Positions 1,505 through 63,155 of a DNA stretch of 64,000 nucleotides are shown piece by piece. The translations under genes were made by a program, and so were the position numbers. The notes below the pieces were generated by a model. The model was given only the letters and a program-made list of their open reading frames with translations, did no database searches and was not told the origin of the DNA. This stretch comes from an uncultured Candidatus Saccharibacteria bacterium (lineage in GTDB: Bacteria; Patescibacteriota; Doudnabacteria; UBA920). The DNA lies in NCBI GenBank assembly GCA_964483665.1, contig CAZACP010000004.1:7399-71398 (forward strand), read 5' to 3'. Each line of letters starts with the position of its first letter. The stretch's first letter is position 1.

Positions 1505-1550
1505 GTCAATCCAAAAAACCGCCCCTCCGCCAGTTGGCGGATCAAGGGAC
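1505..1550. terminator. Bidirectional rho-independent terminator-like hairpin containing CCGCCAGTTGGCGG palindrome
   Basis: The sequence is aaaaaaccgcccctccgccagttggcggatcaagggacggttttt: a stem with an A-run before it and a T-run after it. It is downstream of the rplJ-rplL unit on the minus strand. Confidence 0.5.
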
Positions 1551-1726
1551 GGTTTTTATGTTCGGATCATTCGGATGCGTTCGCAAGTTCGGATCGCAAA
1601 ATTATTTAGTAGATCCTTCGGCTCGTAAACGAGCCTCAGGATGAACCTTAAATAACTGTTACTTGAGGGATCCTTCATCCCAATAAATTGGGACTCAGGA
1701 TCAACTTAAAATAATTAAGTCTAAAA

Positions 1727-7856: not shown

Positions 7857-7931
7857 TGGGGTGTCGCCAAGTGGTAAGGCAGCGCCCTTTGGAGGCGCCA
7901 TTCGTAGGTTCGAATCCTACCACCCCAGCCA
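7857..7931 (+). tRNA. tRNA-Gln (anticodon UUG)
   Basis: Cloverleaf with acceptor stem TGGGGTG/CACCCCA, a 3-bp D stem GCC...GGC, anticodon stem GCGCC/GGCGC with loop CTTTGGA, T arm GTAGG-TTCGAAT-CCTAC, discriminator G and encoded CCA. A TATAAT box sits at 7828-7833. Confidence 0.85.
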
Positions 7932-17175: not shown

Positions 17176-18153
17176 TTACAGCTTCACTATTGCCCTTAAT
17201 TTAGCGGGCTTTGAGCGAGGATTATTTTTTAATTCGTTTTCAGAAGCAGTTACTATTTTTTTGGTTAATATTTTTCCTTGAGGATTTTTGCCACACACAC
17301 ATTGAGGGAAATCTATTGGGCATACGCAGCCTTTACTTAAGCTATTAAAGTATTGTTTTACTATTCTGTCTTCAAGCGAATGGAAGCTTACTATTACTAG
17401 CCTGCCGCCCGGGTTTAAAAGGTCAAAACTTTTTGGCAAAAACTCTTCTAAGGCTTCCAGCTCATGGTTAACCGCTATTCTTAAGGCTTGAAATATTCTT
17501 CTGGCTGAATCATCGGCGCGATGTTTTACAGGCTTAGGAAGTGAATCATGGATTATTTGATAGAGTTCTGTTGTATAGCGGATTTGGCTCTTAGATCTTG
17601 ATTCTTGGATCTTCCTTGCTATCTGGCGGCTAAACTTTTCCTCACCGTAATCGCTAAATATTTTACTAAGCTCCTGTTCGCTTCTGTTATTTAGTAAAAA
17701 ACTTGCGTCTTCGGGTTTAGTTTGATCAAACCGCATGTCTAGCGGCTCTTTTTTCTGAAAGCTAAATCCCCGCCCAGACTGGTCAAGTTCATATGACGAA
17801 AGTCCCAAATCTGCAACAATGCCTGAAATATTATTAAACTCATGTTCTTTTGTTATTTTGTTTATGTTTTGAAAATTGCCGTGCACCGCTATCACTCCCT
17901 CTCCCTCTGGGAGAGGGCCGGGGTGAGGGTGTTTGATATTTGTCCGCCAGTTTGCGGATTGAAATTTGAAATTCTCAATCGCATCCTTGTCCAAATCTAT
18001 AACCAACAACTTGCCGCCCGGAGATATTTTTTGCAAGATCGTCTTACTATACCCTCCTCCGCCTAGCGTCGCGTCGACAAAATTCTCACCGGGCTTAGGG
18101 TTAAGAAAGTAAATAACTTCCTCAAGTAATACTGGAATATGTTCATAATTCAT
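17176..18153 (-). CDS. rsmH: 16S rRNA (cytosine1402-N4)-methyltransferase RsmH/MraW
   Basis: MNYEHIPVLLEEV...DATLGGGGYS and a C-terminal FHSLEDRIVK. It contains an in-frame repeat-derived insert. Confidence 0.85.
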   Translation of the reverse strand: MNYEHIPVLLEEVIYFLNPKPGENFVDATLGGGGYSKTILQKISPGGKLLVIDLDKDAIENFKFQSANWRTNIKHPHPGPLPEGEGVIAVHGNFQNINKITKEHEFNNISGIVADLGLSSYELDQSGRGFSFQKKEPLDMRFDQTKPEDASFLLNNRSEQELSKIFSDYGEEKFSRQIARKIQESRSKSQIRYTTELYQIIHDSLPKPVKHRADDSARRIFQALRIAVNHELEALEEFLPKSFDLLNPGGRLVIVSFHSLEDRIVKQYFNSLSKGCVCPIDFPQCVCGKNPQGKILTKKIVTASENELKNNPRSKPAKLRAIVKL

Positions 18154-18585
18154 TTAAACTCCTAGGCTCCCTAATTGTTCTGCTATTTGATTACTCGCGG
18201 CTTCGGTTTGCTGTTTGTACGCTTTCCACAGTTCTTCGCTCCAAATTTCTATGCGGTTATACAGTCCGGCAATTACTGCTTTTTTCCCAATTTTTGCAAA
18301 TTCCTTTAAATAGGTCGGTAAAATTATTCTGCCTTGCTTGTCTATTTCACAGTCCATAGCCCCGGCTAACATTAAACGGCTAAAGGCTCTGGTATTTGCC
18401 GTGGCAATTGGCAAGCTGGAAAGTTTTTCCGCCAATTTCTTCCATTCTTCCATTGAGTAAAGAAACAACGAATTGTCTAAACCCCTGGTAACAACGACTT
18501 TTCTTTTAAGTTCTGCTCTAAATTTGGCCGGAACTGAAATTCTGCCCTTTTCATCTATACTTGCTTGATATTCACCTATGAACAT
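18154..18585 (-). CDS. mraZ: Transcriptional regulator MraZ
   Basis: 143 aa, two-domain MraZ with DEKGRISVP and DKQGRIILP motifs. Confidence 0.85.
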   Translation of the reverse strand: MFIGEYQASIDEKGRISVPAKFRAELKRKVVVTRGLDNSLFLYSMEEWKKLAEKLSSLPIATANTRAFSRLMLAGAMDCEIDKQGRIILPTYLKEFAKIGKKAVIAGLYNRIEIWSEELWKAYKQQTEAASNQIAEQLGSLGV

Positions 18586-24595: not shown

Positions 24596-24626
24596 ATTTT
24601 TGTTTCCTTAGCTCTTTCCTTATTTT

Positions 24627-24670
24627 TTCCCTCTCCAAGACTTGGAGAGGGTTAGGGAAAGGTTGATGAT
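24627..24670. repeat. Family A element (CCCTCTCCAAGACTTGGAGAGGG TTAGGGAAAGGTTG)
   Basis: Matches the cores at 63043 and 6204. Confidence 0.7.
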
Positions 24671-25534: not shown

Positions 25535-26968
25535 TTACCTTTTAAAACTCTTCCCCGGCCTTATGGAAATATCACCATCGTTATCAACTTCCTTAACTCT
25601 CCCAAAACCTACGCTGTCCCTAAATACTTTCCCTGCCTTTAAAACCGGGGCGTAAGACAAAGTAAATTTGCCGTATTTGGCGTTTACAACATCTATCGCG
25701 CGAGTAAGCGAAGCTTTGGCCGTTTGTTTTTTAAACAAAGACTGCTGAAGAATAAAAGGCTTAAGGCCTGCTACGGTAACGCCTATTAATTTACAATTGG
25801 CGATGATTTTATGTATATCGGTATAATTCTTTATAATATGCCTGGCTTCCCAAAATAAATCCCTTGCGTCAAAAATATCGGTAGACAATTTTGCAGAATG
25901 CCCGTAACTGTTATAATCGCCGTCGCGCACATACGCCACCACAATATTGCCCATTAATTTTTTGCGCCTAAGCCTCTCCCCCACCATTTCGCAAAGCTTG
26001 TATAAAACCGGCTCAAAAAATTCCGGCTTTCTGTATTCCTTAGGCAGAGTATACATATGGCCGATTGATTTTATACTTTCATCAAAATTCACTTTTGCTT
26101 TCCAGCTACCGCTTAACTGTCCCATATGGTGAAGGTGATAGCCGTTAATGCCAAACACTCGCACCAGTTTGCTTAAGGGGTAATCGCGCAGCTCTTTTAA
26201 AGTTTTTATGCCAAGTTCGTTTAACCTTTTTTCCTGCCTTTTGGCTATACCCGGTATGTCGGTAAGTTTAAGACGAGTATAAAGATCTTCTTTGGTTAGA
26301 TTTAAAACCCCATTTGATATTTGAAATTTGATATTTGAAATTAGCACTATTCCATCCGGCTTTTTTAAATCACTCGCAATTTTTGCTAGGAGTTTGTTCT
26401 CCGCAATACCTATGCTGCAAGTTAAATAATCCCCCACTTCTTTTTTCATTCGTTTTTTTATTTCCACAGCTACCCTAACCGCTTCTTGCCAAGGATTGGC
26501 CAATAAATAATCTTTAATTTCTGCCATATAAAAATATGGGTGTTCTATATTTTGAAATTTGGATTTTAAAATTTGTCCGCCAGCTGGCGGATTATTTAAA
26601 AATTTAAAATTTAAAATTGGAAATTTAACATTACAGCTTGCTGTAATGTCCACATACGCTTCATCTATGCTGGCCGGCTCAACAAAATTGCTGTAGTCCC
26701 TTAAAACTTTTAAAAACCGGCGATGATACTCCCTGTAAGCATCGGCCCTTGTATGCACCAAAATAATTTTAGGATACAGCTTTTTAGCTTCCCAGACCGG
26801 CGTGCCGGTCTTTATGCCCCAGCGCTTGGCTTCTATGCTGGCGGCAATAATAATGCCGCCCAAATGTTCGCACACGCCTAAAACCTTGCCGCGGTACTCT
26901 TTATTGTCTTGCTGCTCCACCGAGGCAAAATAGCTGTTCATATCTAAATGCAAAATTACATTTTGCAT
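25535..26968 (-). CDS. dinB: DNA polymerase IV (Y-family)
   Basis: MQNVILHLDMNSYFASVE...SIDEAYVDIT...CSIGIAENKLLAKIAS. It carries two in-frame repeat-derived inserts. Confidence 0.85.
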   Translation of the reverse strand: MQNVILHLDMNSYFASVEQQDNKEYRGKVLGVCEHLGGIIIAASIEAKRWGIKTGTPVWEAKKLYPKIILVHTRADAYREYHRRFLKVLRDYSNFVEPASIDEAYVDITASCNVKFPILNFKFLNNPPAGGQILKSKFQNIEHPYFYMAEIKDYLLANPWQEAVRVAVEIKKRMKKEVGDYLTCSIGIAENKLLAKIASDLKKPDGIVLISNIKFQISNGVLNLTKEDLYTRLKLTDIPGIAKRQEKRLNELGIKTLKELRDYPLSKLVRVFGINGYHLHHMGQLSGSWKAKVNFDESIKSIGHMYTLPKEYRKPEFFEPVLYKLCEMVGERLRRKKLMGNIVVAYVRDGDYNSYGHSAKLSTDIFDARDLFWEARHIIKNYTDIHKIIANCKLIGVTVAGLKPFILQQSLFKKQTAKASLTRAIDVVNAKYGKFTLSYAPVLKAGKVFRDSVGFGRVKEVDNDGDISIRPGKSFKR

Positions 26969-27471: not shown

Positions 27472-27720
27472 TTTTTCCTTCTCCTTGTTGTACGATACAA
27501 AACCCGTCCCAAAGAATAACAAAAAAGTTATTCTCAAGGACGGGTTGATGAAGTTTCATCAGTTTGCCGCGGTACCACCTTGCTTTCCTAAAACTTAGGA
27601 CTCTTTTTACCGGATTTTACGGCTCGGGCAACCGTGCGGGATATTCCCCCGCCAGCGTTTTGGTGTGCGAAACCAAATCTTTAACTGCTTTATACTATTA
27701 TTCCGCCAAAGGCGGATCCG
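27472..27720 (-). promoter_or_regulatory. Putative structured 5' leader with terminator/attenuator hairpin (riboswitch-like arrangement, class unknown)
   Basis: On the minus strand the hairpin is cccgtccttgagaataac-tttttt-gttattctttgggacggg followed by ttttg, 25 nt before the RBS. The GC-rich upstream segment has several short hairpins. Confidence 0.3.
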
Positions 27721-27788
27721 CCTTTGGCGGAATTTTAGCTTAGTTTACCACTTACAAAAATTCTGTCAATAACTTTGAATAACCAAAG

Positions 27789-31502: not shown

Positions 31503-31943
31503 CTAATTTAATTTTGTCATTTCAAGGTCTATTGCTTCATTTACTAGTCTGTCGGCGTCTGAATTTTGGACTCTAGGAACGTGGATGAAATTTACGTTTG
31601 CAAAATTTTTACAAAGTTTTAATACCGTTTCAGCCAGGGGTTTAAGCCCCTGGTCTTTTATTTTATAACGGCCCTGCATTTGCCTGACTATTAACTCACT
31701 ATCCATTCGGATTTCTAGGCTCGCCTTTTCGTTTGAAATTTGAAACTTGTCATTTGAAATTTTAATTGCTTCTTCCAACGCCAAAATCAGAGCCCTATAT
31801 TCCGCCTGGTTATTGGTAGTTTCTCCGATATATTTTTTAAATTCAGCGGTTATTAACCCTTGTTCATTTTTAAAAACCACACCGATCCCCGAAGGGCCTG
31901 GATTCCCCCTAGAGCCGCCATCTGTGTTGATTATTAGTTTCAT
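31503..31943 (-). CDS. rnhA: Ribonuclease HI
   Basis: INTDGGSRGNPGPSGIGVV...TNNQAEYRALILALE...HVPRVQNSDADRLVNEA. It contains an in-frame KISNDKFQISNEK insert. Confidence 0.8.
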   Translation of the reverse strand: MKLIINTDGGSRGNPGPSGIGVVFKNEQGLITAEFKKYIGETTNNQAEYRALILALEEAIKISNDKFQISNEKASLEIRMDSELIVRQMQGRYKIKDQGLKPLAETVLKLCKNFANVNFIHVPRVQNSDADRLVNEAIDLEMTKLN

Positions 31944-32018: not shown

Positions 32019-33746
32019 TTAAGATGATAACTGCCTAATATCTATAATTCTTAACTTTAATTGCTTATTCCCGTTCCATTCATCTTGCAATAATTCACAG
32101 GCTAAATCTAACTCTTGGCCTATTTGTAAACTGCTGTCTTTAGGCCCAAAATTAAAAGCGATGCAGGAAATTTGTCTGTTGCCTAAAGAAATTTTCATTT
32201 GCAAATGCTGTGCTTTTTGTCCCACAGCCCGCTTACTTAATATTTTAGCATTTTTCAGCAAAAATTTTGGTTTCGGGTTGCCAACCCCAAAAGGCTCTAA
32301 GGAAGCAATCAAGTTGTAAGTTGTAAGTTGTAAGTCTTCGGAGGAAAGTTCTGCGTCAATATTTAAAACAGGCCCGTCATCTTCTTCCATATTCTTTTCC
32401 GCAAAATCCAAAACGCTTTGGTAAAATATTTCAAAATTTTCCGTTTGCAAGGTAAGCCCCGCCGCCTGCTTATGCCCGCCATAGCGGATTAAATGCTGGC
32501 CGGAATATTTTAAAGCCTCAACTACATTAAATTCCCCCGCGCTTCTGGCCGACCCGGTCGCTTCAAACTCCCCCTTCTCCAGCACAATTGTGGGTTTATA
32601 AAATTCTTCGGCTAATTTGCCCGCAACTAACCCCACAACGCCTTTATGCCAACTTTCCCCCATTAACACCAAAACCTTCCTGTGAAGTATTCCTTGGGCT
32701 TTTTCTCTCGCTTCGCTCATTATCCGCGCTGTTATTTCCTGCCTTCGCAAATTTATTTCTTCAATATTTTGAGCTTGAATTTTTGCCTTTAAGGGATCGT
32801 TTTCTAACAAAAGTTCCAGGGCAACATTAGCGTGTTCAAGCCTTCCAGCCGCGTTTATCCTTGGTGCAATTACAAAACCTAAGGAATAAGTATCCAGCGG
32901 CTGCTTTGCAGGATCCAGCTTTGCTAAATCCATTAAAGCCCTAAGCCCAACCCACTTTGTTTTAGCTAAAACTTTAAGGCCATACTTAACAAAAATTCTA
33001 TTCTCGCCTATAAGCTTATGACAGTCAGCCACTGTGCCTATAGCCACAAGGTCTAATAGCCACTTTTCCCACCCTTGGGATGATTTCGGATTTCGTCCGC
33101 CAGCTGGCGGATCGGATTTCGGATTTTGCAGCAATGCCTGAGCGAGTTTAAAAGCCACGCCGACCCCAACAATTTGGTCATCCGGATAATTATCGTCTTG
33201 ATTTTTAGGGTTTATAAGCGCTAAAGCGTTTGGTAAATTTCCAATAATTTCATGGTGGTCGGTAATAATTAAGTCTATGTTATTTTCCTTGCACCATTCT
33301 GCGGCATCTACAGAATTTGTGCCGCAGTCCACGGTAATTATTACTTTTGAACCATGTTCTTTAATTTTTTTTAAGGCGTCTAAATTTACCCCGTACCCTT
33401 CCAAAAAACGGTCGGGTATATAACTTTCACAGTCCGCGCCCAAATAATTAAAGGCTTGGCGCAAAACCGCATTAGCGGTTATGGCGTCTGCGTCATAGTC
33501 GCCGTAAATAGTAATTTTTTCTTTATTCTCTATTGCCTGCCATATCCTGTTAACGGCTTTTTCCATATCGCGGAATAAAAACGGGCTATTAAGCCCTGTA
33601 GTATAGTCCGCGTTAATAAATTTTTTTATTTCTTCCGGTTCCTTAAGGCCGCGATCAAAAAGCAATTGCCTTAAAAGGACCGGGTAATCTTTATAAACTT
33701 CTTCCAGTTCTGTCGGAATATTGGGTTTTAATTTCCAAATTTTCAT
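32019..33746 (-). CDS. recJ: Single-stranded-DNA-specific exonuclease RecJ
   Basis: DHH motifs (YGDYDADAITANAVL and IITDHHE) and a DHHA1 domain. It has two in-frame repeat inserts. Confidence 0.85.
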   Translation of the reverse strand: MKIWKLKPNIPTELEEVYKDYPVLLRQLLFDRGLKEPEEIKKFINADYTTGLNSPFLFRDMEKAVNRIWQAIENKEKITIYGDYDADAITANAVLRQAFNYLGADCESYIPDRFLEGYGVNLDALKKIKEHGSKVIITVDCGTNSVDAAEWCKENNIDLIITDHHEIIGNLPNALALINPKNQDDNYPDDQIVGVGVAFKLAQALLQNPKSDPPAGGRNPKSSQGWEKWLLDLVAIGTVADCHKLIGENRIFVKYGLKVLAKTKWVGLRALMDLAKLDPAKQPLDTYSLGFVIAPRINAAGRLEHANVALELLLENDPLKAKIQAQNIEEINLRRQEITARIMSEAREKAQGILHRKVLVLMGESWHKGVVGLVAGKLAEEFYKPTIVLEKGEFEATGSARSAGEFNVVEALKYSGQHLIRYGGHKQAAGLTLQTENFEIFYQSVLDFAEKNMEEDDGPVLNIDAELSSEDLQLTTYNLIASLEPFGVGNPKPKFLLKNAKILSKRAVGQKAQHLQMKISLGNRQISCIAFNFGPKDSSLQIGQELDLACELLQDEWNGNKQLKLRIIDIRQLSS

Positions 33747-33749
33747 TGA

Positions 33750-33830
33750 GTAGTTGGTAGTTGGTAGTTGGTAGTTGGTAGCCCAAATTGCTCCGGCTAC
33801 TTACTACTTTACTACCTACTACTTACTAAA
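33750..33830. repeat. Family D element: (TAGTTGG)4 array - spacer - (CTACTTA)n array
   Basis: Read directly from the sequence. The second copy is at 62515-62590. Confidence 0.65.
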
Positions 33831-45135: not shown

Positions 45136-45501
45136 TTAAAACCCGCATGCTTCTTTTATTTTACTTAAAACTCCTTGAATATTTGTGTCTATTTCATTAT
45201 TCCAAAATCTTAAAACTTTGTAGCCTATTTTTTCTGCGTACTGTTGTTTTCGCTTATCGTAAGCCGATATTTCTTGCTCGCTGTGCTGTCCTCCGTCTGC
45301 CTCCACTAAGAGCATTTTCTCTTTACAACTAAAATCATAAATATACTGTCCAATTTGCATTTGACGCTTAAATTTTAACCCATAAAACCTACCAGCTCTT
45401 AAATAATACCAAAGCTTGCTTTCCCAAGGAGTCTGATTTTTTCTTAGGCTTCGGGAATTGGTTAAATATGGCTCTGGTATAACTCTTTTGGCAGTATCCA
45501 T
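45136..45501 (-). CDS. DUF559 endonuclease-domain protein (Vsr-like fold)
   Basis: YGLKFKRQMQIGQYIYDFSCKEKMLLVEADGGQHS...YKVLRFWNNEI. Confidence 0.75.
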   Translation of the reverse strand: MDTAKRVIPEPYLTNSRSLRKNQTPWESKLWYYLRAGRFYGLKFKRQMQIGQYIYDFSCKEKMLLVEADGGQHSEQEISAYDKRKQQYAEKIGYKVLRFWNNEIDTNIQGVLSKIKEACGF

Positions 45502-45511
45502 ATGTTTTTAG

Positions 45512-45620
45512 TCTCTCCCCTTTTAAGGGGAGATGTCACGAGTGTATCCGAGTGACAAAGAGGTTGTATACTACATCTACTGCAACCTCTCCCTAACCCT
45601 CTCCTTAAAAGGAGAGGGTA
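45512..45620. repeat. Family A composite element (4 hairpins: CTCCCC/GGGGAG, GTCAC/GTGAC, GAGGTTG/CAACCTC, CCCTCTCC/GGAGAGGG)
   Basis: Same stem set as 63043-63138 in inverted orientation, but with different loops. Confidence 0.7.
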
Positions 45621-45645
45621 CCTGTAAAGATATCGTACGTTTCTT

Positions 45646-62510: not shown

Positions 62511-62514
62511 TATG

Positions 62515-62590
62515 TAGTTGGTAGTTGGTAGTTGATAGTTGGTAGCCGAACATTGCCTGACTACTTACTACTTACTACTTCACTAATCGC
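62515..62590. repeat. Family D element (TAGTTGG array - spacer - CTACTTA array)
   Basis: It overlaps the last 8 codons of rplO. Confidence 0.65.
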
Positions 62591-63019: not shown

Positions 63020-63042
63020 AAATAGATATATTCCTTATAGTT

Positions 63043-63138
63043 TCCCTCTCCAAGACTTGGAGAGGGTTAGGGAGAGGTTGAAAATTATTAACCTCTCTGT
63101 CACCTTTCGGGTGACATCTCCCCAAGCTTTCGGGAGAA
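63043..63138. repeat. Family A composite element in the rpsE-rplO spacer (where rpmD/L30 would normally be)
   Basis: ccctctccaagacttggagaggg ttag ggagaggttg..aacctctct gtcacctttcgggtgac atctcccc.. Confidence 0.7.
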
Positions 63139-63155
63139 TTATATTGTGCTTCGCG

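What the first reader, a model, noticed from the sequence alone, without database searches (positions are those of the whole stretch)
17895..17990. RsmH carries a composite in-frame insert made of three repeat families
Between the conserved DAIEN and VIAVHGNF segments, RsmH has FKFQSANWRTNIKHPHPGPLPEGEG. The DNA reads TTCAAATTTCAA (family C), then CCGCAAACTGGCGG (family B palindrome), then CCCTCACCCCGGCCCTCTCCCAGAGGGAGAGGG (family A hairpin). Three different mobile motifs have landed together inside an essential rRNA methyltransferase without breaking the frame.
Basis: partly seen in the sequence, partly recalled or inferred. Interest (0 to 1): 0.7.

Follow-up and report, generated by a model that had tools for sequence, protein, structure and literature searches.

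The report
Repeat-built loop inside RsmH gene
A candidate-phylum bacterium's rRNA methyltransferase gene carries, in frame, a short stretch made of three kinds of small DNA repeat, one of which is the "triplex motif" known from E. coli spacers; the repeats accumulated one after another at a hypervariable surface loop, not in a single event.

Summary
RsmH (17176-18153, minus strand) contains, in frame:
- a 7-nt microsatellite, AATTTCA x2.1;
- a degenerate copy of a 16-nt palindrome, TCCGCCAGCTGGCGGA;
- a perfect 33-nt G/C-rich motif.

Each part belongs to a family with other copies in the window. At least 10 contigs carry the identical protein, and the six read (six samples, two contig-naming styles) hold the same insert, so it is not a chimera.

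"Family A" is already known. It matches the TMECO/PIT/BoxC intrastrand-triplex pattern exactly and is about 95% identical to the E. coli copies, which are always intergenic.

The three parts did not land together:
- The heptamer tract sits at this site in most related (mostly Doudnabacteria) RsmH genes.
- The triplex motif is shared with orthologues that are only 66-70% identical in DNA, yet the motif itself is 90-97% identical.
- The palindrome is shared only with the closest relative (85%), which lacks the triplex motif.

A structure model places the insert as a helix extension plus a disordered loop before strand β3. DinB and RecJ in the same window carry the palindrome inside heptamer tracts, and an RNase H-like gene carries the heptamer tract alone.

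Best reading: small repeats acquired one after another, tolerated and translated, at a permissive hot spot. This resembles Rickettsia palindromic elements, but the pieces are much smaller. How they spread is unknown.

The parts
17176..18153 (-). rsmH (16S rRNA m4C1402 methyltransferase) ORF, 325 aa. It lies in the order mraZ-rsmH-ftsL-like-ftsI.
   Evidence: ORF list. PF01795 hits and source-given names. PDB RsmH/MraW hits at E=1e-53 to 1e-57. Neighbours MraZ and PBP.
17959..17973 (-). Family C: heptanucleotide microsatellite AATTTCA x2.1, encoding N-F-K-F-Q.
   Evidence: TRF gives period 7, 2.1 copies, 100% matches. The same unit occurs x4 at the orthologous site in L092 and L096.
17943..17958 (.). 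Family B: degenerate 16-nt palindrome TCCGCAAACTGGCGGA (consensus TCCGCCAGCTGGCGGA), encoding S-A-N-W-R-T.
   Evidence: The closest relative L091 has TCCGCCAAATGGCCGGA at this site, one heptamer further upstream and in another frame.
17932..17942 (-). Remnant of the heptamer tract (CAAATATCAAA) between palindrome and triplex motif, encoding (T)-N-I-K.
   Evidence: Sequence. It aligns with ATATCAAATGCCAAA in L087.
17897..17929 (+). Family A: complete TMECO/PIT-type intrastrand triplex motif, type B. It reads CCCTCTCCC-TCT-GGGAGAGGG-CCG-GGGTGAGGG, lies antisense to rsmH, and encodes (H)PHPGPLPEGEG.
   Evidence: Exact match to the published pattern. It is 94.7% identical over 38 nt to copies in 4592 of 5426 E. 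coli genomes. The mRNA forms a perfect 9-bp hairpin. pLDDT is below 50 for residues 74-83.
26576..26591 (.). Family B, perfect copy inside DinB/Pol IV (25535-26968, minus strand), encoding NPPAGGQ. It is flanked by heptamer tracts at 26549-26575 and 26594-26632.
   Evidence: The Pfam IMS domain has about 45 extra residues. The 77%-identical orthologue L095 lacks LNNPPAGG.
33096..33111 (.). Family B, perfect copy inside RecJ (32019-33746, minus strand), encoding DPPAGGR. It is flanked by GGATTTC heptamers at 33082-33095 and 33112-33126.
   Evidence: Pfam DHH/DHHA1/RecJ_OB.
1526..1541 (.). Family B copy (TCCGCCAGTTGGCGGA), intergenic. It is nested inside a longer terminator-like hairpin downstream of rplL.
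27702..27731 (.). Two abutting variant B palindromes (TCCGCCAAAGGCGGA / TCCGCCTTTGGCGGA), intergenic.
   Evidence: (I2).
24629..24662 (+). Family A, intergenic type-A copy (CCCTCTCC-AAGACTT-GGAGAGGG-TTA-GGGAAAGG).
45586..45618 (-). Family A, intergenic type-A copy (CCCTCTCC-TTTTAA-GGAGAGGG-TTA-GGGAGAGG).
63044..63077 (+). Family A, intergenic type-A copy (CCCTCTCC-AAGACTT-GGAGAGGG-TTA-GGGAGAGG).
26312..26342 (-). Family C tract (ATTTGAA x4.4) inside DinB, encoding ISNIKFQISN.
   Evidence: The orthologue L095 has a different 7-aa repeat (SSEQWLVSSEQCLV) at the same site.
31732..31762 (-). Family C tract (TTTGAAA x4.4) inside an RNase H-like gene (31503-31943, minus strand), encoding ISNDKFQISNEK.

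Best explanation
The segment is a translated, tolerated patch of small repetitive DNA. It built up in successive layers at one permissive spot of RsmH: the junction between helix alpha-B and strand beta-3 of the Rossmann fold.

**Layer 1 (oldest).** A heptanucleotide microsatellite tract lies at this site in most related RsmH genes. The unit differs between lineages: AATTTCA, GCAATCA, AGCTACA, AATCTTA-like and others. Three units make 21 nt, or 7 aa, so the tract reads as FKFQISN-type periodic peptides. I infer that it grows and shrinks by replication slippage.

**Layer 2.** A 33-nt polypyrimidine/polypurine motif of the TMECO/PIT/BoxC 'intrastrand triplex' class sits at the 3' edge of the tract. 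It behaves as a nucleic-acid-level entity: its DNA is far better conserved than the gene around it, and different lineages read it in different frames.

**Layer 3 (youngest).** A 16-nt palindrome of a family that in this genome sits inside heptamer tracts (also in DinB and RecJ).

Only combinations whose total length is a multiple of three and that contain no stop survive, so the frame is kept. The protein accommodates the extra 15 residues as a longer helix plus a disordered surface loop. By class I methyltransferase topology this loop is on the side of the sheet away from the SAM pocket.

**Shown:** the composition; family membership; the in-frame status; the patchy orthologue distribution; the DNA-over-protein conservation; the low model confidence in the loop.

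**Inferred:** that the patch is neutral or slightly deleterious for RsmH, and that the motifs arrive by some insertion or template-switching process that favours heptamer tracts. That process is not identified.
For: - **Insert anatomy and chance:**
- **Family A is TMECO.** The published pattern is CCCTCNCCC-N3-6-GGGNGAGGG-N3-GGGNGAGGG (PMC4666352), and the window matches it exactly at 17897-17929. It is 32/34 identical to E. coli TMECO no. 1. blastn gives 94.7% over 38 nt in 4592 of 5426 E. coli genomes, with no annotated feature under the listed best matches.
- **Other family A copies** lie at 24629, 45586 and 63044. There are none in 1.28 Mb of rsmH loci from other phyla.
- **Layering:**
  - L088 (79% aa identity) has only a degenerate heptamer tract.
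  - L091 (85%) has heptamers plus the palindrome.
  - L087 (74%) and L092 (69%) have heptamers plus the triplex motif at the same site and in the same frame.
  - The window has all three.
- **Tree.** With the segment masked, the window nests among triplex-free sequences.
- **DNA-level conservation.** Window against L087: 70.3% nt identity over the gene, 43.5% at third positions, but 38/39 in the motif (P about 2e-5). L099/L100 carry the motif at the same site in another frame (TLTPSLSQGDRV).
- **Translation.** All 19 DNA-sampled relatives and all 120 protein hits are open and in frame across segments of about 14 to 96 aa.
- **Structure.** Helix 56-72, loop 73-86 with pLDDT below 50 at 74-83, strand 87-91. 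Solved RsmH structures lack these residues.
- **Generality.** DinB and RecJ carry the perfect palindrome inside heptamer tracts. An RNase H-like gene carries the heptamer tract. The 77%-identical DinB in L095 lacks the palindrome.
- **Independent assemblies:**
- **Precedent** for in-frame repeat insertions: Rickettsia RPEs (PMC10969869; PMC3184786).
Against: - No clean filled-versus-empty boundary, target-site duplication or transposase was found. Filled and empty orthologous sites differ by more than the element alone, and 10 ORFs scanned gave no transposase. 'Insertion' as a mechanism is therefore inferred, not shown.
- The triplex motif sits at the identical site and phase in distant orthologues. 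This could instead mean ancient vertical inheritance with strong DNA-level selection, which would imply a function rather than neutrality.
- The tree is a quick neighbour-joining tree on one 287-column protein alignment without support values.
- There is no proteomic or transcript evidence that the segment is actually translated.
- Its position relative to the rRNA-binding surface was not computed.
Confidence: 0.68

Rival explanations
1. One reading: the three motifs form, or travelled as, one composite mobile unit that inserted into rsmH in a single event.
For: The three motifs are contiguous. The palindrome co-occurs with heptamer tracts in DinB and RecJ as well. Intergenic family A copies are part of larger composite repeats.
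Against: Orthologues carry every sub-combination at the same site: C only, C+B, C+A and C+A+B. Nowhere else in the window do A, B and C occur together. The B copy is decayed while the A copy is perfect, which suggests different ages.
Confidence: 0.04
2. No transposition at all. The site is simply a fast-evolving low-constraint loop in which slippage and quasi-palindrome correction (intrastrand template switching) generate heptamer tracts and perfect hairpins in place. The resemblance to other loci reflects genome-wide mutational bias.
For: Heptamer tracts with different units occupy orthologous sites in RsmH and DinB. No target-site duplication or transposase was found. Holder et al. link these motifs to local small indels rather than to mobile elements.
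Against: A 33-nt sequence matching an exact published pattern, and about 95% identical to E. coli copies, is very unlikely to arise locally several times. The 16-nt palindrome is identical in DinB and RecJ. Family A copies at 24629 and 63044 share even the loop AAGACTT.
Confidence: 0.15
3. The triplex motif or hairpin is a functional nucleic-acid signal kept inside the ORF. Possible roles: a transcription or translation pause, or an RNA-stability element tuning expression of rsmH-ftsL-ftsI; or a DNA structure used in replication or recombination. On this view the peptide is a by-product.
For: Nucleotide conservation is far above the gene background, including at synonymous positions. Different lineages use different reading frames. 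The mRNA forms a strong perfect 9-bp hairpin. The intergenic copies at 45586 and 63044 lie about 85 nt upstream of start codons.
Against: The closest relatives lack it entirely while keeping the same operon. In E. coli the motif showed no promoter or terminator activity and no functional class bias. The overall fold z-score is only -2.5.
Confidence: 0.12
4. The insert is not part of the mature protein. It is removed from the mRNA, or skipped by the ribosome as in T4 gene 60 or the GC-rich 'byp' elements of Magnusiomyces mitochondria (these comparisons are from memory).
For: It is a GC-rich hairpin-forming element inside an AT-rich gene.
Against: Every sampled orthologue keeps the variable segment in frame and free of stops despite lengths of about 14-96 aa. 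Without translation, two thirds would be out of frame. No Rfam intron or other family matched. There are no matching take-off and landing codons flanking the hairpin. In this copy the zero frame contains no X_XXY_YYZ slippery site.
Confidence: 0.03
5. Assembly chimera or sequencing artefact.
For: None beyond the general difficulty of assembling short repeats.
Against: At least 10 contigs carry the identical protein. The six read, from six samples with NODE_ and k141_ contig names, hold the identical insert. Related inserts occur in many independent metagenomes.
Confidence: 0.01

Closest known systems
TMECO / PIT / BoxC G/C-rich intrastrand triplex motif (Holder et al. 2015, NAR, PMC4666352; earlier Hoyne and Maher, cited there)
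   Same: The sequence pattern matches exactly: 9-nt C stem, 3-nt loop, 9-nt G stem, CCG loop (type B), 9-nt G stem. The window copy is 32/34 identical to E. coli K-12 copy no. 1 and about 95% identical by blastn. Copies are dispersed, and the motif is associated with locally variable sequence.
   Different: The E. coli copies are always intergenic, and the motif was reported in 262 proteobacterial genomes. Here it lies inside an ORF, is read as protein, and occurs in a Patescibacteria (Doudnabacteria) genome of about 40% G+C. The window's three intergenic copies have 8-nt stems.
Rickettsia palindromic elements (RPE; Ogata et al. 2000 and 2002, as summarised in PMC10969869 and PMC3184786)
   Same: Repeats present in both coding and non-coding DNA. 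They are inserted in frame into unrelated housekeeping genes at positions compatible with the fold.
   Different: RPEs are about 105-150 bp, and each family encodes a conserved peptide. Here the pieces are 7, 16 and 33 nt, are stacked, and are read in different frames in different lineages, so nothing is conserved at peptide level.
Small dispersed repeats (SDR) of Nostocaceae (Elhai et al. 2008, Genome Res; paper not held, so details are from memory; its existence is cited in PMC3116915 and PMC5861425)
   Same: Very small (21-27 nt) hairpin-forming repeats that are often embedded in tandem heptanucleotide repeats and nested in one another. This is what family B does here.
   Different: SDRs are cyanobacterial, essentially intergenic, and have different sequences. 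[quoted passage not shown]
REP / REPIN elements with RAYT transposases (PMC3116915; PMC3733652)
   Same: Short G/C-rich imperfect palindromes in many copies. One locus (27702-27731) is a doublet.
   Different: REPs are extragenic, whereas 3 of the 5 family B loci found here lie in ORFs. No RAYT was seen among the ORFs scanned. No GTAG or CGTC tag is present.

Membership tests
TMECO/PIT intrastrand triplex motif | Sequence pattern CCCTCNCCC-N3-6-GGGNGAGGG-N3-GGGNGAGGG | tested here: met
   One exact match at 17897-17929 (+), with 0 expected in shuffles. The pattern is taken from PMC4666352.
TMECO/PIT intrastrand triplex motif | Direct sequence similarity to the E. coli copies | tested here: met
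   94.7% over 38 nt, in 4592 of 5426 genomes, median 7 places per genome. 32/34 identical to K-12 copy no. 1.
TMECO/PIT intrastrand triplex motif | Multiple dispersed copies in the same genome | tested here: met
   Three further three-part copies (24629, 45586, 63044) with 8-nt stems and a TTA loop. Only 64 kb of the genome was available.
TMECO/PIT intrastrand triplex motif | Intergenic location (always so in E. coli) | tested here: not met
   This copy lies inside rsmH and in frame. The other three copies in the window are intergenic.
TMECO/PIT intrastrand triplex motif | Forms a stable intrastrand triplex as single-stranded DNA | not testable with these tools
   Only the 9-bp hairpin could be predicted. 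Triplex formation needs CD or NMR.
TMECO/PIT intrastrand triplex motif | Flanking sequence unusually variable between relatives | tested here: met
   The segment ranges from about 14 to 96 aa among 120 orthologues, and presence of the motif is patchy.
Rickettsia palindromic element-like in-frame repeat | A repeat family present in both coding and non-coding DNA, inserted in frame into conserved genes | tested here: met
   Families A, B and C each occur in ORFs and in spacers. RsmH, DinB, RecJ and the RNase H-like gene are affected.
Rickettsia palindromic element-like in-frame repeat | Element of about 100-150 bp encoding a conserved peptide | tested here: not met
   The pieces are 7, 16 and 33 nt. 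The same DNA motif is read as PHPGPLPEGEG or as TLTPSLSQGDRV. The palindrome is read as SANWRT, IRQMAG or PPAGG.
Rickettsia palindromic element-like in-frame repeat | Insertion at a surface position compatible with fold and function | tested here: inconclusive
   The model gives a helix extension plus a loop with pLDDT below 50 before beta-3. Distance to the SAM and rRNA sites is inferred from fold topology, not measured.
REP/REPIN-RAYT | Extragenic palindromes arranged as inverted doublets | tested here: not met
   3 of the 5 family B loci found are intragenic. Only 27702-27731 is a doublet.
REP/REPIN-RAYT | A cognate RAYT (IS200-like Y1 transposase) gene in the genome | not tested
   Only 10 window ORFs were scanned with Pfam, and none was a transposase. 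The whole genome is not available. L087 has an IS1595 transposase near mraZ, of unknown relevance.
MITE | Terminal inverted repeats plus target-site duplication | tested here: not met
   No duplication or clean boundary appears when filled and empty orthologous sites are compared. The pieces are far shorter than MITEs.
SDR-type hairpins in heptamer tracts | Small hairpin repeat embedded in tandem heptanucleotide repeats | tested here: met
   Heptamer tracts flank all three intragenic family B copies on both sides. The defining description is from memory because the paper is not held.
Intein / intron / bypass element | Removed before or during translation (splice-junction residues, an intron RNA fold, or take-off and landing codons) | tested here: not met
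   The insert is only 15-25 aa. No Rfam family reached its threshold. The frame is preserved in all 19 DNA-sampled relatives.

The most novel reading that the evidence does not exclude
In Doudnabacteria, heptanucleotide microsatellite tracts embedded in permissive loops of housekeeping genes act as recurrent landing pads, or generators, for tiny structured DNA motifs. One of these is the cross-phylum TMECO triplex motif, which is then actively maintained at the DNA level inside an ORF.

This would imply one of two things:
- a sequence-specific insertion or gene-conversion machinery for elements of 33 nt or less that works across very distant phyla; or
- a nucleic-acid-level function, such as pausing control within the dcw operon.

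The coding setting gives base-exact filled and empty sites for studying how these motifs spread.
Probability: 0.2. Interest if true: 0.7.

Novelty: new variant of a known kind. Interest (0 to 1): 0.45.

Why it matters
How very small repeats spread is still not known. The G/C-rich triplex motif has been known in E. coli for decades (as BoxC and PIT), with no agreed function or means of dissemination, and has been described as strictly intergenic.

Here the same motif is embedded in frame in a conserved gene of a Patescibacteria lineage. It is present or absent among close orthologues, and it is conserved well beyond the neutral expectation for its surroundings. This provides a natural series of filled and empty sites under a frame constraint. 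Such a series can be used to date gains and losses and to test whether selection acts on DNA or on protein.

The finding also shows that genes in these reduced genomes (RsmH, DinB, RecJ, an RNase H-like gene) tolerate repeat-derived peptide patches. That matters for annotation, for alignment-based phylogeny of these bacteria, and for interpreting 'lineage-specific insertions' in their proteins.

If the ordinary reading is right, the practical message is more modest: this is junk-like repeat DNA read as protein, as in Rickettsia.

Tried and rejected
- **Genome-contig scan with the RsmH alignment.** These were useful only as a 1.28-Mb negative control for the motifs.
- **Metagenome-contig scan.** It found no relative closer than 74%, so no strain-level presence/absence alleles were obtained.
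- **Elhai et al. 2008 (SDR paper).** Not held under either DOI or PMC id. The SDR comparison therefore rests on memory and on citing papers.
- **Literature search linking heptamer repeats with Patescibacteria.** Nothing found.
- **Rfam.** Only a tRNA at 7857-7928 reached threshold. The insert gave sub-threshold chance-level hits (whalefall-1 and a flavivirus stem-loop, E of 0.15-0.25).
- **ARAGORN on the 80-94-aa inserts of other orthologues (L113, L103).** No tRNA-like element.
- **Intein, rejected.** The insert is too short and has no junction residues.
- **Programmed -1 frameshift, rejected for this copy.** AAATTTC is an X_XXY_YYZ heptamer, but in the window's two-unit tract it is not in the zero-frame register. 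In four-unit tracts such as L092, about 17 nt separate it from the strong 9-bp hairpin, which is too far.
- **DNA-uptake-sequence reading of family B, considered weak.** The density is only about 1 per 13 kb.
- **Filled versus empty site comparison.** No clean target-site duplication emerged.
Full report
**1. What is there**

The minus-strand ORF 17176-18153 encodes a 325-aa RsmH. It lies between mraZ (18154-18585) and an ftsL-like ORF plus ftsI. It carries PF01795 and matches solved RsmH/MraW structures at E = 1e-53 to 1e-57. The best hits with source-given names are from Candidatus Doudnabacteria / Patescibacteria.

On the coding strand the DNA runs:
- AATTTCAAATTTCAA (17973-17959);
- TCCGCAAACTGGCGGA (17958-17943);
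- CAAATATCAAA (17942-17932);
- CA;
- CCCTCACCC-CGG-CCCTCTCCC-AGA-GGGAGAGGG (17929-17897).

**2. Is it more than chance, and is it an artefact?**

- The G/C-rich motif never occurs in shuffles.
- The palindrome occurs 7 times at up to 2 mismatches, against 0.36 expected.
- The 12-mer TTCAAATTTCAA occurs 9 times at up to 1 mismatch, against 2.45 expected.
- Period 7 is the only short period with several perfect tandem runs in the window: 5 runs, against 0-1 for every other period from 4 to 13 and for 15. Period 14, its multiple, has 3 (TRF rows).

At least 10 contigs carry the identical 325-aa protein. The six read come from six ENA samples with NODE_ and k141_ contig names, and all six contain both the palindrome and the G/C motif. 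An assembly chimera is excluded.

**3. What the three families are**

*Family A* is not merely a hairpin. Read on the plus strand it is CCCTCTCCC-TCT-GGGAGAGGG-CCG-GGGTGAGGG.
- This is an exact instance of the pattern CCCTCNCCC-N3-6-GGGNGAGGG-N3-GGGNGAGGG. Holder et al. (NAR 2015, PMC4666352) named that pattern TMECO; earlier names were PIT and BoxC.
- It is their 'type B' (CCG second loop) and is 32/34 identical to E. coli K-12 copy no. 1.
- A direct blastn of the window segment finds 94.7% identity over 38 nt in 4592 of 5426 complete E. coli genomes. The median is 7 places per genome, with no annotated feature under the listed best matches.
- In E. coli the motif is always intergenic, is not linked to transposons, has no promoter or terminator activity, and marks loci with excess small indels.
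- The window holds three further three-part copies, all intergenic and all of type A (TTA loop, 8-nt stems): 24629-24662, 45586-45618 and 63044-63077. Two of these are embedded in a longer shared module.
- No such motif occurs in 1.28 Mb of rsmH loci from other phyla. Doudnabacteria loci L087, L088 and L093 have one each.

*Family B* has the consensus TCCGCCAGCTGGCGGA.
- Perfect copies lie inside DinB/Pol IV (26576-26591, read NPPAGGQ) and RecJ (33096-33111, read DPPAGGR).
- A near-perfect copy is nested in a terminator-like hairpin downstream of rplL (1526-1541).
- A variant doublet lies at 27702-27731.
- The RsmH copy is decayed: 6 of 8 arm positions still pair.
- All three intragenic copies have heptamer repeats on both sides.

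*Family C* is a heptanucleotide microsatellite. Three units make 21 nt, so it translates as a 7-aa period (FKFQISN). The same unit occurs in RsmH, twice in DinB and in an RNase H-like gene.

**4. Orthologue comparison**

Among 120 RsmH relatives, the segment between AI(E/K)N and the beta-3 strand ranges from about 14 to 96 aa.

In many insert-free proteins this segment already looks like translated heptamer repeats, with lineage-specific units: LKSLNLKS, SAIRNPQS, AKTQNPNTK, FQFLISNFQ. DNA from relatives shows perfect (AATTTCA)x4, (GCAATCA)x4 and (AGCTACA)x4 at this very site.

The parts have different depths:
- L088 (79% aa identity) has only a degenerate tract.
- L091 (85%, the closest relative) has the tract plus a family B palindrome. 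The palindrome sits one heptamer further upstream, is read in another frame (IRQMAG), and there is no triplex motif.
- L087 (74%) and L092 (69%) have the tract plus the triplex motif at the same position and codon phase, and no palindrome.
- L093 has a symmetric double version of the motif.
- L099/L100 have a decayed copy in a different reading frame (TLTPSLSQGDRV).
- L106 and L102 have other palindromes.

In a neighbour-joining tree with the segment masked, the window pairs with L091's protein. It nests inside a clade of eight triplex-free sequences, while the triplex-bearing orthologues sit in three other clades. So the motif was either gained several times at one hot spot, or was ancestral and lost many times.

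Either way the three parts did not arrive together.

**5. The motif is conserved as DNA, not as peptide**

Window against L087: the gene is 70.3% identical in nucleotides and 43.5% at third codon positions, yet the 39-nt block holding the motif is 38/39 identical (P about 2e-5). Against L092 it is 35/39 in a gene that is 65.8% identical.

The alternative reading frame in L099/L100 points the same way. The constraint, or the recency, applies to the nucleic acid.

**6. Is it translated, and where does it sit?**

Every one of the 19 relatives sampled at DNA level by tblastn is open and in frame through the segment, whatever its length. So is every one of the 120 protein hits. Removal before translation would impose no such constraint.

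No Rfam family fits. The mRNA forms a perfect 9-bp hairpin (MFE -32.7 kcal/mol for 101 nt, z = -2.5), which I assume a translating ribosome can unwind.

An AlphaFold model built on 48 orthologues (mean pLDDT 85) gives:
- helix 56-72, so the heptamer and palindrome peptides prolong helix alpha-B;
- an unstructured stretch 73-86, with pLDDT below 50 at 74-83, which is the triplex-motif peptide;
- strand 87-91.

The T. maritima and E. coli structures lack 14-15 residues exactly here.

In class I methyltransferases the helix-to-strand connections lie at the edge of the sheet opposite the SAM pocket. This is established fold topology; the inference for this protein was not measured.

All the columns that are invariant across the 48 aligned orthologues, including the GGGG, GNF, DLG-SS and SFHSLEDR stretches, are also intact in the window protein.

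**7. Generality in this genome**

DinB has about 45 residues more than its Pfam domain model, and RecJ's DHH domain about 37 more.

The 77%-identical DinB of L095 lacks LNNPPAGG (the palindrome) and a further 16 residues. It still has a heptamer-type peptide there. At a second DinB site the two genomes carry different 7-aa repeats: ISNIKFQISN against SSEQWLVSSEQCLV.

Repeat-derived patches in conserved genes are thus a property of these genomes, not a peculiarity of RsmH.

**8. Mechanism**

Best supported (confidence about 0.68): small repeats accumulated stepwise, and are tolerated and translated, in a permissive loop.
- The heptamer tract is the old substrate. I infer that it changes by slippage.
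- The structured motifs preferentially end up in or beside it.
- Only length combinations that preserve the frame survive. Compared with L087, for example, the window has +16 (palindrome), +3, -7 (one heptamer) and -3, which sums to +9 nt.

The means of arrival is unknown. I found no target-site duplication, no clean boundary, and no transposase among 10 ORFs scanned.

Rivals, with confidence:
- Local generation by slippage and template switching, without transposition (0.15). The exact cross-locus and cross-phylum identity argues against it.
- A functional nucleic-acid signal inside the ORF (0.12). The DNA-level conservation argues for it; absence from the closest relatives argues against it.
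- A single composite insertion (0.04).
- RNA removal or ribosomal bypass (0.03).
- Artefact (0.01).

**9. Comparison with known systems**

The closest analogue in behaviour is the Rickettsia palindromic element: repeats inserted in frame into unrelated housekeeping genes (PMC10969869; PMC3184786). But RPEs are 105-150 bp with conserved peptides, so this is not a member of that family.

In sequence, family A is a member of the TMECO/PIT class, apart from its intragenic location.

Family B inside heptamer tracts recalls the Nostoc small dispersed repeats. That comparison is from memory, because the paper is not held.

The REP/REPIN and MITE definitions are not met.

I found no paper in the held library describing heptamer tracts or such patches in Patescibacteria.

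**10. Verdict**

It is a new variant of a known kind (in-frame small-repeat insertion). The noteworthy points are:
- a well-known 'intergenic' cross-phylum motif is here read as protein;
- it is conserved as DNA inside a diverged gene;
- it sits at a hot spot seeded by heptanucleotide repeats.

RsmH is not essential in E. coli, where delta-rsmH lengthens the doubling time by 15% (PMC2831307). This lowers the surprise.

Interest: 0.45.

Noticed in passing
window 17580-17613: A second heptamer tract inside rsmH, (GGATCTT) x about 5, encoding QESRSKSQIR. It coincides with another length-variable region of the orthologue alignment (A1 columns about 283-305).
   Followed up: partly
window 33750-33828 and 62514-62585: Two intergenic loci carry the same pair of perfect heptamer arrays, (GTAGTTG) x4.6 followed by (CTACTTA/ACTACTT) x about 4. 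The two arrays are partly complementary, so each locus could form a long imperfect hairpin. Function unknown.
   Followed up: no
window 45495-45630 (-) and 63030-63150 (+): A shared intergenic module of about 100 nt. It consists of the triplex-type motif followed by two further hairpins (TGTCAC...GTGACA and TCTCCCC...GGGGAGA). In both cases it lies upstream of a start codon. A shorter relative lies at 24600-24665.
   Followed up: partly
window 1513-1556: The family B palindrome sits in the loop of a larger G/C hairpin followed by a T run, on the minus strand downstream of rplL. This is a nested, terminator-like structure. An (AG) x7.5 run lies just beside it at 1487-1501.
   Followed up: no
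window 26549-26632 (DinB) and L095:1479-2837: DinB carries about 26 extra residues (LNNPPAGG plus EHPYFYMAEIKDYLLA) relative to a 77%-identical orthologue. At a second site the two genomes have unrelated 7-aa repeats. Heptamer tracts at orthologous sites therefore change unit between relatives.
   Followed up: partly
L113:233-1420, also P0038 and P0108; L103:5470-6522: Some orthologues carry much larger in-frame inserts at the same RsmH site: about 85-96 aa in P0108, P0038 and L113, and about 50 aa in L103. The content is non-repetitive (e.g. ...LDGGPEGNRIPETRLSM...). ARAGORN finds no tRNA in them. Origin unknown.
   Followed up: partly
L087:7623-8483: In the relative that shares the triplex motif, an IS1595-family transposase gene lies about 0.9 kb upstream of mraZ (about 1.5 kb upstream of rsmH). 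The window has no counterpart at that position.
   Followed up: no
window 17893-17930: Sub-threshold Rfam hits to whalefall-1 RNA (15.5 bits against a gathering score of 37) and a flavivirus stem-loop. They most likely just reflect the G/C hairpin.
   Followed up: yes
window 1-64000: GC skew is negative across almost the whole window, and nearly all genes from 13.6 kb onward are on the minus strand. This is consistent with a single replichore and co-oriented transcription.
   Followed up: no
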